Shown here in pieces: positions 42,033-46,211 of a stretch of 64,000 nucleotides of DNA. How positions within the stretch are numbered: position 1 is the first letter of the stretch; each line of letters starts with the position of its first letter. The stretch spans positions 2,665 through 66,664 of the forward strand of contig NZ_JBCNLU010000023.1 of assembly GCF_039595295.1 (NCBI RefSeq), in the 5' to 3' direction. Below the pieces are notes generated by a model. That model was not told the DNA's origin and ran no database searches. It saw nothing but the letters and a program-made list of their open reading frames with translations. The position numbers and the translations under genes are program-made. Origin of the DNA: Roseateles sp. GTDB taxonomy: Bacteria; Pseudomonadota; Gammaproteobacteria; Burkholderiales; Burkholderiaceae_C.

Positions 42033-44270
<2,238 letters not shown>

Positions 44271-44296
44271 GCCTTGGGGGCGGGGCGAGCCTGAGG

Positions 44297-44376
44297 TGTA
44301 GGCAAATTGGCTACGGTGTAGGCGGATTGCCTACGCTGTAGCCCGATTGCCTACAATGTAGGCAGATTGCCTACGC
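44297..44376. repeat. Four tandem 20-bp units, each an inverted repeat (consensus TGTAGGC-N2-ATTGCCTAC-N2)
   Basis: TGTAGGCAAATTGGCTACGG / TGTAGGCGGATTGCCTACGC / TGTAGCCCGATTGCCTACAA / TGTAGGCAGATTGCCTACGC; ends 16 nt before the ATG at 44393. Confidence 0.9.
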
Positions 44377-44392
44377 CTTCAGCAAGCCCGCC

Positions 44393-44998
44393 ATGAATGA
44401 ATCCCAACTGACCGAAGTCTTCGGCAGCATCGGCCGCTTCCGTGTGCTGCGAGCGCTCTTCGCCGAGCCGGCTCGTGGTTTCGGTCAGCGCGAGTTGGCG
44501 GCGGAGGCGGGGACCGACGTGGGCAGCGTGGCCCGTTGGTTGCGGCGGTGGGTCGCGGCAGGGTTGGTCTCGCGGCGGCAGCAGGATGGATTGCCTCGCT
44601 ATCAAGCGAGTCCCGATCCATCGCTCGCGCCGCTGGTGGCGCTGATGCAGCAGGACAGCCGGCTCGTTGAGACATTGAAGGAGGCGCTGCAGCCCTTGAA
44701 GGGGGTACAGGTCGCTTTCGTTTTCGGCTCGGTCGCGCGCGGTGAAGCGGGTGCCGACAGTGACATCGACGTCCTCGTGCTGGGAAGTTTGTCGGAACTC
44801 AAGGTGAACGTTGCTTTGAAGCCCGCGGCTCGCGCGCTCGGCCGCGAGGTGCATGCGACGGCCTCTACGATTTCCGCCTTTCAGGAACAGCTTCGTGGCG
44901 GGGAGAGCTTCGCGCAAGACATCGCGCGAGGGCCGCGAATACCCTTGATGGGGGATTTCGATGCCGAAGTCATTTCAGGAGCTGGCGGCCCGGCCTGA
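44393..44998 (+). CDS. Winged-HTH + minimal nucleotidyltransferase (MNT) fusion, putative antitoxin/repressor
   Basis: N-terminal wHTH (RVLRALF...QRELAAEAG...VARWLRRW..AGLV); FGSVARG...DSDIDVLV. Confidence 0.85.
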   Translation: MNESQLTEVFGSIGRFRVLRALFAEPARGFGQRELAAEAGTDVGSVARWLRRWVAAGLVSRRQQDGLPRYQASPDPSLAPLVALMQQDSRLVETLKEALQPLKGVQVAFVFGSVARGEAGADSDIDVLVLGSLSELKVNVALKPAARALGREVHATASTISAFQEQLRGGESFAQDIARGPRIPLMGDFDAEVISGAGGPA

Positions 44999-45428
44999 GG
45001 CGCCTCTGAAGCCGCTGGCGGTCAATGCGCGAGACGTGGTGCAGTGGCTCAACCAGGCGCAAGCCAAGTTGCAGGACGCGCGCCACCCGGCGATCTCCAA
45101 TGGCACGCGCATGGACGCGGCATGGGATGCGGTGCTGCTGTCCTGCATGGCCGTCGCGTGCGCCGAGGGGTGGCGCATCACGAGTGATCGAGGTCACCAC
45201 GCGGTGGCGTTGGAAGGCGCGGCGCACGAGCTGGCGATCGGCGAGCGCCGCTTCGATGAACTGGACATTCTTCGCGACTGGCGCAACCGGAAGTACCGGC
45301 CCGGCTACATGGTCGAAGGCGATGAACTGAGCGAGGCGCTGGAGTGGGTCGCGCCCTTTCTTGCGGACGTCGCGACCTGGTTTGATCGGAAGCATCGCGC
45401 GCTCATCCAACGTGGGCTGGCGCGCTGA
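44961..45428 (+). CDS. HEPN-like protein, putative toxin partner
   Basis: All-helical; RMDAAWDA, GHH, LRDWRNRKY; overlaps the MNT gene by 38 nt. Confidence 0.7.
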   Translation: MPKSFQELAARPEAPLKPLAVNARDVVQWLNQAQAKLQDARHPAISNGTRMDAAWDAVLLSCMAVACAEGWRITSDRGHHAVALEGAAHELAIGERRFDELDILRDWRNRKYRPGYMVEGDELSEALEWVAPFLADVATWFDRKHRALIQRGLAR

Positions 45429-45496
45429 GCCGGGGTCACTTGGGCGATATACGTTTCGTTCCATCTCCCCTGCCCCTTCATTCCTAAGATGCCGGA

Positions 45497-46132
45497 ATGA
45501 ACCGATTCCCCAAGCCGTCGAGCGCGCCTCGCCTGCCGCTCGATGCCGTGATGTTGCTGGTGCTGGTCCTGGCCGCCTGTGGCGGCGGGGGCGGAGACGC
45601 GCCTCCCGTGGCAACGACGCCCACGACACCGACCACCCCGACCACTCCCACGACCCCGACCAATCCGACCACGCCGCCTGCCGTCGTCGGCACTTGCGAC
45701 CTGCCCAACTTCCAGCAGGACCTGCTGACTCGTATCAATGCGTTGCGGGCAGCGGGCGCAAGCTGTGGGAGTTCCGGGACCTTCCCTCCCACCACGGCGC
45801 TGAGCTGGAACATCAATCTGACCAACGCCGCCGATGCGCACGCGCTGGACATGGCGACGAAGAATTACTTCAGCCATGACAGCCAGGACGGGCGCTCGTT
45901 TGCCGATCGCATCACCGCCGCCGGCTACAGCTGGAGCGCGGCCGGCGAGAACATCGCCGCCGGGCAACCCACCGTCGAATCGGTGATGAGCGCGTGGATC
46001 AACAGCCCCGGGCATTGCGCGAATCTGATGTCGGCGAGCTATGTCCATGTGGGTGTCGCGTGCCGACCGGCTGCGTCGACGTCGAACTCGTACTCTAGGT
46101 ATTGGGTCATGGACCTCGCGAAGCCGCGCTGA
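45497..46132 (+). CDS. CAP/SCP-domain lipoprotein with (TTP)n linker
   Basis: Lipobox LAAC; INALRAAG..C, AADAHA.DMA..NYFSH, GENIA, WINSPGHCANLM. Confidence 0.9.
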   Translation: MNRFPKPSSAPRLPLDAVMLLVLVLAACGGGGGDAPPVATTPTTPTTPTTPTTPTNPTTPPAVVGTCDLPNFQQDLLTRINALRAAGASCGSSGTFPPTTALSWNINLTNAADAHALDMATKNYFSHDSQDGRSFADRITAAGYSWSAAGENIAAGQPTVESVMSAWINSPGHCANLMSASYVHVGVACRPAASTSNSYSRYWVMDLAKPR

Positions 46133-46211
46133 GGCTGACATGCGTCGCTGCTCAGCCCCTTGCAGCGAAGCCGCGCTGAGGCTGCCATGCGTCGTTGCTC
46201 AGCCCCTTGCA
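46118..46211 (+). repeat. 47-bp direct tandem duplication (2 copies, 2 mismatches) covering the CAP stop codon
   Basis: GCGAAGCCGCGCTGAGGCTG(A/C)CATGCGTCG(C/T)TGCTCAGCCCCTTGCA at 46118 and 46165. Confidence 0.85.

What the first reader, a model, noticed from the sequence alone, without database searches (positions are those of the whole stretch)
44297..44376. Array of four phased 20-bp palindromes in front of an HTH-MNT/HEPN pair
Each unit is GTAGGC-N5-GCCTAC. The 20-bp period is about two helical turns, which puts all sites on roughly one DNA face. Unit 3 deviates to create TACAAT (44352-44357), a -10-like hexamer, so the promoter appears embedded in the array. Most TA promoters carry one or two operators. 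Four suggests cooperative, filament-like repression by the wHTH-MNT, or a titration device. An alternative is a degenerate GTAG-type REP cluster or an insertion scar.
Basis: partly seen in the sequence, partly recalled or inferred. Interest (0 to 1): 0.72.

Follow-up and report, generated by a model that had tools for sequence, protein, structure and literature searches.

The report
Four-operator array before MNT-HEPN operon
Four evenly spaced 17-bp palindromes just upstream of a DNA-binding nucleotidyltransferase gene are most likely that protein's own repressor-binding sites: a conserved, apparently undescribed control region of a catalogued toxin-antitoxin-like candidate phage-defence gene pair, and not a genome-wide repeat.

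Summary
The array is real: four units at an exact 20-bp period (44298-44374). It lies between katG and a two-gene operon, a MarR-like wHTH fused to a minimal nucleotidyltransferase (44393-44998) and a 155-aa partner (44961-45428). The partner has no sequence match to any family, but its predicted fold is HEPN.

All 37 distinct homologous loci recovered from Burkholderiales genomes carry an array of usually 3-4 such units directly upstream of the gene. Of 87 start-to-start gaps, 81 are exactly 20 bp. The flanking genes differ between clades. The unit is not dispersed: in 610 kb, 117 units lie in arrays and 2 elsewhere. Its half-site changes in step with the predicted recognition helix. A -10-like TACAAT sits inside the array.

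This supports a cooperative autorepression operator and rejects the REP and scar alternatives. Binding, cooperativity and the transcription start are inferred, not shown.

The gene pair matches PADLOC candidate system PDC-M05. Remote PDC-M05 relatives on plasmids have only one or two palindromes, so the multi-unit phased array belongs to this subfamily. Multi-operator toxin-antitoxin promoters are already known (hipBA has four). This is a new variant of a known kind, of moderate interest.

The parts
44295..44375 (+). Whole array: four 20-bp repeats, each a 17-bp palindrome plus a 3-bp spacer
   Evidence: TRF period 20, 4.1 copies, score 106; the repeat finder family with spacings 20, 20, 20; same array with 0-1 differences in four independent DNA runs
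44298..44314 (.). Unit 1, GTAGGCAAATTGGCTAC (7 of 8 palindromic pairs)
44318..44334 (.). Unit 2, GTAGGCGGATTGCCTAC; contains the -35-like TTGCCT
44338..44354 (.). Unit 3, GTAGCCCGATTGCCTAC; its last 3 bases start the -10-like hexamer
44358..44374 (.). Unit 4, GTAGGCAGATTGCCTAC; lies downstream of the -10-like hexamer, over the expected start site and early leader
44352..44357 (+). -10-like hexamer TACAAT (end of unit 3 plus spacer AAT); inferred promoter element
   Evidence: Conserved as CTACAATG in all loci of the Mitsuaria/Roseateles clade while the other spacers vary. 29 of 38 loci have a TAnAnT hexamer built the same way. The strict consensus promoter scan finds nothing.
44327..44332 (+). 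-35-like hexamer TTGCCT, 19-bp spacer to TACAAT (weak, inferred)
   Evidence: The spacer is longer than the 16-18 bp optimum. Limnohabitans homologues carry a canonical TTGTCA-17-TATATT inside their arrays.
44393..44998 (+). wHTH-MNT gene (201 aa): MarR/ArsR-like winged helix (recognition helix about residues 43-56) fused to a minimal nucleotidyltransferase with GSX10DXD (G112 S113 ... D124 x D126); PADLOC PDC-M05A
44961..45428 (+). Partner gene (155 aa), overlapping the MNT gene by 38 nt: HEPN fold by prediction, non-canonical motif LRDWRNRKYR, invariant G78 H79; PADLOC PDC-M05B

Best explanation
The array is the promoter-operator region of the wHTH-MNT/HEPN-like operon, a member of the candidate defence and toxin-antitoxin-like system PDC-M05.

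Proposed mechanism:
1. Dimers of the wHTH-MNT protein bind the palindromes through the MarR-like winged helix, with residues 43-56 as recognition helix.
2. The eight half-sites alternate in orientation. They form dyads both at unit centres (8-1-8) and at the spacers (8-3-8).
3. The fixed 20-bp (about 1.9-turn) period places successive dimers on nearly the same DNA face, so neighbours can touch and bind cooperatively.
4. The promoter is buried in the array: -35-like TTGCCT in unit 2, -10-like TACAAT at the unit 3/spacer junction, and unit 4 over the start region.
5. A filled array therefore shuts off the operon (negative autoregulation). A fall in free repressor gives steep, switch-like derepression.

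Shown: the array, its family-wide conservation, the strict phase, linkage to the gene rather than to the flanks, the lack of dispersal, and half-site/recognition-helix co-variation.

Inferred: DNA binding by this protein, cooperativity, repression, the start site, and which dyad is the binding unit.
For: - All 37 distinct homologous loci from Burkholderiales genomes (63-89% protein identity) have a phased array directly upstream of the ATG. Lag 20 is the best autocorrelation lag in 34 of 37, with mean 0.485 against about 0.25.
- 81 of 87 unit-to-unit gaps are exactly 20 bp, although units within one array are only 69% identical on average. This indicates selection on phase.
- katG and the CAP gene flank the module only in the Mitsuaria/Roseateles clade. 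The other 29 loci lack both neighbours yet keep the array.
- L011 and L013 have a separate GC hairpin plus T-run after katG, upstream of the array; L009 and L010 have the GC-rich hairpin region without a clear T-run.
- Five recognition-helix variants go with five half-site variants, for example ARWLRRW with GTAGGCAA and NTARLLKRW with GTTGTCnA. The helix position comes from the model and the MarR alignment.
- TACAAT is invariant in the clade while other spacers drift. Limnohabitans arrays embed TTGTCA-17-TATATT.
- The protein has a MarR/ArsR-type wHTH.
- The Shewanella MNT antitoxin represses its own promoter (PMC4621449), and evenly spaced operators are the usual substrate of cooperative toxin-antitoxin repression (PMC8138530).
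Against: - No binding, footprint or start-site data exist.
- The consensus sigma-70 scan finds no promoter, and the -35/-10 spacer is 19 bp.
- RNA contigs are too sparse to map a start. One contig of a related strain runs from the katG end through the array, so read-through or DNA carry-over cannot be excluded.
- The helix/half-site co-variation follows the clades and is phylogenetically confounded.
- Remote PDC-M05 relatives manage with one or two palindromes, so the need for 3-5 units is unexplained.
Confidence: 0.75

Rival explanations
1. The repressing species is the MNT-HEPN complex. The HEPN-like partner bridges neighbouring wHTH-MNT dimers on the evenly spaced sites, as in conditional cooperativity of ccdAB or phd/doc, and excess partner breaks the chain and derepresses. 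This is a variant of the best explanation, not an exclusive alternative.
For: Evenly spaced operators bridged by toxin are the textbook arrangement (PMC8138530). MntA and HepT form large hetero-oligomers (PMC7641770). The genes overlap by 38 nt, which suggests coupled synthesis.
Against: About 11 of 37 loci have a truncated or lost partner gene but keep an intact wHTH-MNT and a phased array, for example Limnohabitans L024, L027-29, L031-32. The partner is therefore not needed to maintain the array, unless those losses are very recent.
Confidence: 0.3
2. The array acts as RNA: a set of stable hairpins that ends or stabilises the katG transcript, or a structured 5' leader of the MNT mRNA that controls translation or is a target of the HEPN RNase.
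For: The 122-nt intergenic RNA folds to -75.2 kcal/mol, z = -7.5. The window and L008 have no separate katG terminator. No Shine-Dalgarno sequence precedes the ATG. Unit 4 would be transcribed if TACAAT is the -10.
Against: Strong folding is an automatic result of palindromes. There is no T-run. The array persists where katG is absent. L011 and L013 have their own hairpin-plus-T-run terminator upstream of the array. The conserved positions are those of a dyad DNA site that co-varies with a DNA-recognition helix, not compensatory stem changes.
Confidence: 0.07
3. It is a degenerate GTAG-type REP/BIME cluster, a MITE or an insertion scar with no link to the neighbouring gene.
For: Units start with GTAG and are short palindromes in an intergenic region after a convergently unrelated gene. 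A real dispersed family sharing GGTAGGCAA exists in other, unrelated high-GC metagenome contigs.
Against: There is no other copy in the 64-kb window. In 610 kb of window plus homologous loci, 117 units lie in arrays and 2 outside, against 8 expected by chance. In the 20-kb loci of the same clade every match lies in the 100 bp before the gene. One full-length contig per DNA run lies on the array. The array is always in the same place relative to the gene, with different flanks. The other organisms' dispersed unit is absent from the window.
Confidence: 0.02
4. The array is a protein-loading platform with a non-transcriptional main role: a centromere or iteron-like site, or a store that titrates the wHTH-MNT.
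For: Four 20-bp repeats upstream of an operon resemble plasmid parC or iteron layouts (own knowledge, not checked here). A remote homologue sits between rep and parB on a Burkholderia plasmid.
Against: The locus is chromosomal, between katG and a CAP-domain gene. No rep or par gene lies beside it in the annotated orthologous loci. The sites overlap promoter-like elements, which already explains them.
Confidence: 0.05

Closest known systems
PDC-M05 (PADLOC phage-defence candidate; nucleotidyltransferase with HTH plus HEPN protein)
   Same: Both proteins match the PADLOC models strongly (M05A E = 1.9e-75, M05B E = 2.6e-52). They are adjacent in the same order. The literature describes M05A as an ArsR-like HTH plus nucleotidyltransferase and M05B as HEPN (PMC12988326; bioRxiv 10.1101/2024.09.26.614923).
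   Different: The passages mentioning PDC-M05 in three of the four papers listed by the search do not mention its cis-regulatory region. Remote members on plasmids have one or two CCCA-N5-TGGG-type palindromes and no 20-bp array. The array is a feature of the Burkholderiales subfamily.
Type VII toxin-antitoxin HepT/MntA (Shewanella SO_3166/SO_3165)
   Same: MNT gene first and overlapping a HEPN-fold gene. The GSX10DXD motif is present. The MNT half of the model matches MntA structures. The partner model matches HepT chains weakly. The Shewanella antitoxin represses its own promoter (PMC4621449).
   Different: MntA has no DNA-binding domain, and its promoter has two dissimilar palindromes (PMC4621449). 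Here a wHTH is fused and 4 phased, similar palindromes are present. The partner lacks RX4HXY: it reads R108-NRKY-R113, with no His.
hipBA operator region of E. coli
   Same: Four palindromic operators (TATCC-N8-GGATA) bound cooperatively by an HTH antitoxin that autorepresses the operon (PMC3376134).
   Different: Unrelated proteins (Xre-type HipB, kinase HipA). In the published O1O2 oligonucleotide the two sites start about 29 bp apart, so there is no uniform 20-bp tandem array (PMC3376134).
MarR-family repressors and their operators
   Same: A winged helix with MarR-like sequence and fold. The sites are 17-bp dyads overlapping promoter elements.
   Different: Pfam MarR scores are below the gathering threshold (21.5 against 24.6 bits). 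The dimerisation and effector part is replaced by an MNT domain. No solved structure covers both domains (best TM-score on query 0.39).
ccdAB and omega-type extended operators
   Same: Many repeated sites around the promoter are coated by repressor or toxin-antitoxin chains (PMC3920265).
   Different: Those use RHH proteins and 6-7-bp repeats. Here the protein is a wHTH and the sites are 17-bp dyads at a two-turn period.

Membership tests
PDC-M05 (PADLOC candidate defence system) | Protein A matches a PDC-M05A model and protein B a PDC-M05B model | tested here: met
   E = 1.9e-75 over residues 1-193 and E = 2.6e-52 over residues 3-151
PDC-M05 (PADLOC candidate defence system) | The two genes are adjacent and co-oriented | tested here: met
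   44393-44998 and 44961-45428, both on the + strand, with a 38-nt overlap. The same offset is found in the homologous loci.
PDC-M05 (PADLOC candidate defence system) | Protection against phage | not testable with these tools
   One unrelated representative protected E. coli against at least one phage in a preprint (10.1101/2024.09.26.614923). The role is called unconfirmed in PMC12988326.
Type VII TA HepT/MntA | GSX10DXD motif in the MNT | tested here: met
   GSVARGEAGADSDID: G112, S113, D124 and D126 are invariant in 17 sequences. The motif is kept in 34 of 37 loci. Motif definition from PMC7641770.
Type VII TA HepT/MntA | RX4HXY motif in the HEPN toxin | tested here: not met
   The invariant stretch is L104 R105 D W107 R108 N R K Y112 R113. 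There is no His 5 residues after either Arg. An invariant H79 lies elsewhere.
Type VII TA HepT/MntA | HEPN fold of the partner | tested here: met
   AF2 model with pLDDT 94.9. Best PDB match is 2hsb, a HEPN protein (TM on target 0.78, probability 1.0), then 1ylm and HepT chains. This is a prediction, with weak E-values (0.013 and above).
Type VII TA HepT/MntA | Partner is toxic and is neutralised by AMPylation | not testable with these tools
   Indirect only: the partner gene is truncated in about 11 of 37 loci while the MNT gene stays intact.
REP/BIME (GTAG-type repetitive extragenic palindromes) | Many copies dispersed in intergenic regions of the genome | tested here: not met
   0 other copies in the window. 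2 against 117 units outside against inside arrays in 610 kb. One contig per DNA run. A whole-genome count was not possible.
REP/BIME (GTAG-type repetitive extragenic palindromes) | Short palindrome beginning with GTAG | tested here: met
   The units are GTAGGC...GCCTAC. This is a superficial resemblance only.
REP/BIME (GTAG-type repetitive extragenic palindromes) | A RAYT transposase in the genome | not tested
   No search was made.
MarR-family transcription factor | Match to the MarR profile above Pfam's threshold | tested here: inconclusive
   PF01047 21.5 bits against a cut-off of 24.6; PF12802 19.8 against 27. PDB profile hit to MarR-type regulator 3bpv, E = 0.003. Structural hits to several MarR proteins at probability 1.0.
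Plasmid iterons / parC centromeres | Tandem repeats next to replication or partition genes on a replicon | tested here: not met
   The neighbours are katG and a CAP-domain gene.

The most novel reading that the evidence does not exclude
The array is more than a repressor site. It would template a DNA-bound chain of wHTH-MNT dimers whose assembly state controls the nucleotidyltransferase's action on the non-canonical HEPN partner, for example AMPylation of the invariant Tyr112. Operator occupancy and toxin neutralisation would then be coupled. A trigger such as phage infection that strips the chain would switch on transcription and free active HEPN at once.
Probability: 0.1. Interest if true: 0.7.

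Novelty: new variant of a known kind. Interest (0 to 1): 0.45.

Why it matters
MNT-HEPN modules are among the most abundant toxin-antitoxin-like pairs, and PDC-M05 is reported as one of the commoner candidate defence systems, but how they are switched is poorly known. The studied MntA has no DNA-binding domain.

This locus gives a concrete, testable regulatory design:
- a repressor domain fused to the MNT;
- a defined 17-bp site with a readable helix-to-base code across clades;
- a strictly phased multi-site operator that predicts steep, cooperative control.

It also provides natural variants: 3-5 units, loci without the partner, and remote relatives with 1-2 sites. These can be compared directly. 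It is a useful model, not a new principle.

Tried and rejected
- REP or scar hypothesis: tested by window search, a PWM scan of 610 kb, a clade-specific pattern count and laying DNA-run contigs on the array. Rejected.
None is array-like and none lies next to a homologue. They are mostly chance singletons or repeat families of other organisms, so the scan says nothing about the source genome.
- Start-site mapping from public RNA runs: only low-depth assembled contigs are available. One contig starts at 44384, and another from a related strain spans the katG end to 44420. Inconclusive.
- Consensus promoter and terminator scan: nothing found.
- Sequence-level identification of the partner (Pfam, NCBIfam, PDB profile): no hit. 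Fold prediction was needed.
- Viral contigs: no relatives.
- katG terminator role: rejected as the primary role, because the array persists without katG.
- Which dyad is the binding unit (unit centre or spacer centre): considered, but it cannot be decided from sequence. In several loci the outermost half-sites of the end units are the most degenerate, which slightly favours spacer-centred pairs. Arrays nevertheless begin and end with complete units.

Full report
1. What is there

The intergenic region between katG (42078-44270) and the next gene holds four 20-bp repeats (TRF 44295-44375, period 20, no indels, score 106). Each repeat carries a 17-bp palindrome:
- 44298-44314, GTAGGCAAATTGGCTAC
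- 44318-44334, GTAGGCGGATTGCCTAC
- 44338-44354, GTAGCCCGATTGCCTAC
- 44358-44374, GTAGGCAGATTGCCTAC

The palindromes are separated by the 3-bp spacers GGT, GCT and AAT. Two of the four fit GTAGGC-N5-GCCTAC exactly and two have one mismatch. There is no further copy in the 64-kb window. Comparison with orthologues shows that the consensus dyad is longer, 8-1-8: GTAGGCAA-N-TTGCCTAC.

2. The genes behind it

ORF 44393-44998 (201 aa) has two parts:
- An N-terminal winged helix of MarR/ArsR type. Pfam MarR and HTH hits are just below threshold. A PDB profile search hits the MarR-type regulator 3bpv.
- A C-terminal minimal nucleotidyltransferase (Pfam NTP_transf_2 and Polbeta, PDB 1wot), with an invariant GSX10DXD motif.

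An AlphaFold model (pLDDT 90.3) places the recognition helix at residues 43-56 and the wing at 59-72. Its two halves match MarR/ArsR regulators and MntA antitoxins separately. No solved structure covers both halves.

ORF 44961-45428 (155 aa) overlaps the first gene by 38 nt. It has no Pfam, NCBIfam or PDB sequence match. Its model (pLDDT 94.9) is most like the HEPN protein 2hsb (TM 0.78 on the target), then YutE and HepT chains. It lacks the RX4HXY motif of type VII toxins. The invariant stretch is LRDWRNRKYR, with an invariant His79 elsewhere (motif definition from PMC7641770).

Both proteins match PADLOC's candidate defence system PDC-M05 (A: 1.9e-75; B: 2.6e-52). PDC-M05 is described as a nucleotidyltransferase plus HEPN pair, enriched in archaea, with an unconfirmed antiviral role (PMC12988326). 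One representative protected E. coli against at least one phage (bioRxiv 10.1101/2024.09.26.614923). M05A was up-regulated on phage infection of Burkholderia cenocepacia (PMC12584637).

3. Comparative test

Homologues of the 201-aa protein occur in Mitsuaria, Roseateles, Aquabacterium, Hydrogenophaga, Methylibium, Limnohabitans, Polaromonas, Paucibacter, Ramlibacter and relatives. I retrieved 38 species-representative loci, 37 of them distinct, plus 7 contigs.
- Every locus has a phased array immediately upstream of the start codon.
- Identity at lag 20 is the maximum in 34 of 37 loci, with mean 0.485 against about 0.25.
- A PWM built from the units finds 3 units in 23 loci, 4 in 13 (the window included) and 2 in 2. 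L014 shows five positions by eye, with decayed ends.
- 81 of 87 start-to-start gaps are exactly 20 bp. Four are 40 bp (a decayed unit between), one is 39 and one is 19.
- Units within one array are only 69% identical on average. The phase has therefore been kept while the sequence drifted.
- The family consensus is GTAGnCAAnTTGnCTAC, with G1, G4, C14 and C17 nearly invariant.

4. Linked to the gene, not dispersed
- katG and the downstream CAP-domain gene are neighbours only in the Mitsuaria/Roseateles clade. The other 29 loci lack both neighbours but keep the array.
- L011 and L013 have a separate GC hairpin with a T-run after katG, ahead of the array. L009 and L010 have the GC-rich hairpin region without a clear T-run.
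- In 610 kb (window plus loci), 117 units of 12 bits or more lie in arrays and 2 elsewhere. Shuffled sequence gives 8.
- In the 20-kb loci of the window's clade, every exact match lies in the 100 bp before the gene.
- Four DNA runs that contain the locus each give a single full-length contig on the array, with 0-1 differences. There is no sign of extra copies or of copy-number change among close strains.
It also returned a truly dispersed family (ATTGGGGTAGGMAA) from other high-GC organisms. That family shows what a REP-like element looks like in this analysis, and it is absent from the window.

The REP or scar reading is rejected.

5. Link to the protein's DNA-reading head

Half-site variants follow variants of the recognition helix:
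- GTAGGCAA with D(A/V)GSVARWLRRW
- GTAG(A/C)CAA with DPGGVARLLKRW
- GTAGT(C/T)AA with DPGNVSRLLKRW
- GTTGTCnA with DPGNTARLLKRW
- GATGTCAA with DSGNVSRMLKRW

This is what direct read-out predicts. The changes follow clades, however, so it is supportive rather than conclusive.

6. Promoter
- TACAAT (44352-44357) consists of the last three bases of unit 3 plus the spacer AAT.
- That spacer is invariant in the clade while the other spacers vary. 29 of 38 loci have a TAnAnT hexamer built the same way.
- The matching -35-like TTGCCT (44327-44332) lies in unit 2 at a 19-bp spacing, a consequence of the period, and is suboptimal. The strict scan reports no promoter.
- Limnohabitans arrays contain a canonical TTGTCA-17-TATATT.
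- In two Hydrogenophaga loci the hexamer lies 6 nt before the ATG, which suggests leaderless mRNA.
- No locus shows a Shine-Dalgarno sequence.
- Public RNA data are low-depth contigs and do not fix the start.

The claim that the promoter is embedded in the array is well supported by comparison. The exact start is not known.

7. Mechanism

The most likely reading (about 0.75) is cooperative negative autoregulation. wHTH-MNT dimers occupy the dyads. The two-turn phase lets neighbours interact. Occupancy covers the -35, the -10 and the start.

The eight half-sites alternate in orientation, with about 9 and 11 bp between their centres. Dyads therefore exist both at unit centres and at spacers, and sequence alone cannot say which is the dimer site.

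A variant in which the HEPN partner bridges dimers is possible. It is weakened by the roughly 11 loci in which the partner gene is truncated while the repressor gene and the array persist.

An RNA-level role is unlikely to be primary. The fold energy of -75 kcal/mol (z = -7.5) is an automatic result of the palindromes, and the array persists without katG.

8. Comparison and novelty

Remote PDC-M05A relatives (27-36% identity) on plasmids of Sulfuricella, Bradyrhizobium, Cupriavidus, Legionella, Mycobacterium and haloarchaea show no 20-bp array. Several of them (Sulfuricella, Bradyrhizobium, Cupriavidus, the Legionella plasmids) show one or two palindromes, often CCCA-N5-TGGG, at the promoter. 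The multi-unit phased array is thus an elaboration specific to this Burkholderiales subfamily.

Multi-operator control of toxin-antitoxin operons is known: hipBA has four cooperative operators (PMC3376134), and ccdAB and omega have extended arrays (PMC3920265). The studied MntA has no DNA-binding domain and two dissimilar palindromes (PMC4621449).

The passages I read in three of the four papers listed by the PDC-M05 search do not mention an operator array. The library is incomplete, so this is absence of evidence only.

I rate it a new variant of a known kind, of moderate interest.

Noticed in passing
L013 10569-10835; L024, L027, L028, L029, L031, L032 (partner ORF 46-59 aa); L033, L034, L040, L041; window 44961-45428 for comparison: The HEPN-like partner gene is truncated or lost in about 11 of 37 homologous loci. 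This happened at least three times independently (at different break points). The wHTH-MNT gene, its GSX10DXD motif and the array stay intact. An RNA-run contig of a relative also joins 44964 to 45444 with 73 other bases, so it lacks the partner.
   Followed up: partly
L053, L056, L061, L066, L083, L088 (11609-11657), L093 (1040, 11008, 12895), L100, L101, L111, L121, L123-125, L132, L135, L136, L145, L153, L161 and others: High-GC metagenome contigs carry a truly dispersed repeat with unit ATTGGGGTAGG(C/A)AA. Direct copies lie 20 or 32 nt apart, followed by inverted copies, with several insertions per contig and often near contig ends. It looks like a GTAG-type REP/BIME or a MITE of another organism. 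It is absent from the window and from the homologous loci.
   Followed up: partly
L166-L176 (plasmid loci of remote homologues): Remote PDC-M05A homologues have one or two short palindromes, commonly CCCA-N5-TGGG, between or just after -35/-10-like hexamers: Sulfuricella, Bradyrhizobium (two), Cupriavidus and Legionella adelaidensis. The modules sit next to integrases, transposases, rep/par genes or other toxin-antitoxin pairs.
   Followed up: partly
window 44375-44392; same region in all loci; L015 and L018 just before the ATG: No Shine-Dalgarno-like sequence precedes the wHTH-MNT start codon in any locus. In two Hydrogenophaga loci TACAAT or TACACT lies 6 nt before the ATG, as expected for a leaderless mRNA.
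   Followed up: no
window 44271-44297 compared with L011 and L013 upstream of their arrays: katG has no recognisable intrinsic terminator of its own in the window or in M. chitosanitabida (L008). Roseateles sp. (L011) and Mitsuaria sp. GD03876 (L013) have a GC hairpin with a T-run between katG and the array; L009 and L010 show the GC-rich hairpin region only. An RNA-run contig of a related strain runs from the katG end into the MNT gene.
   Followed up: partly
window 46118-46211: There is an exact-phase tandem duplication of a 47-bp unit (95% identical, TRF score 174) right at and after the stop of the CAP-domain gene. Each copy contains the inverted repeat GCTGAG...CTCAGC, and there are only these two copies in the window.
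   Followed up: partly
window 45497-46132, repeats at 45620-45676: The gene downstream of the pair encodes a CAP/SCP-domain protein (Pfam PF00188) with a lipoprotein-like N-terminus and a (PTT)n low-complexity linker encoded by 9-bp repeats. It is a conserved neighbour only in the Mitsuaria/Roseateles clade.
   Followed up: no
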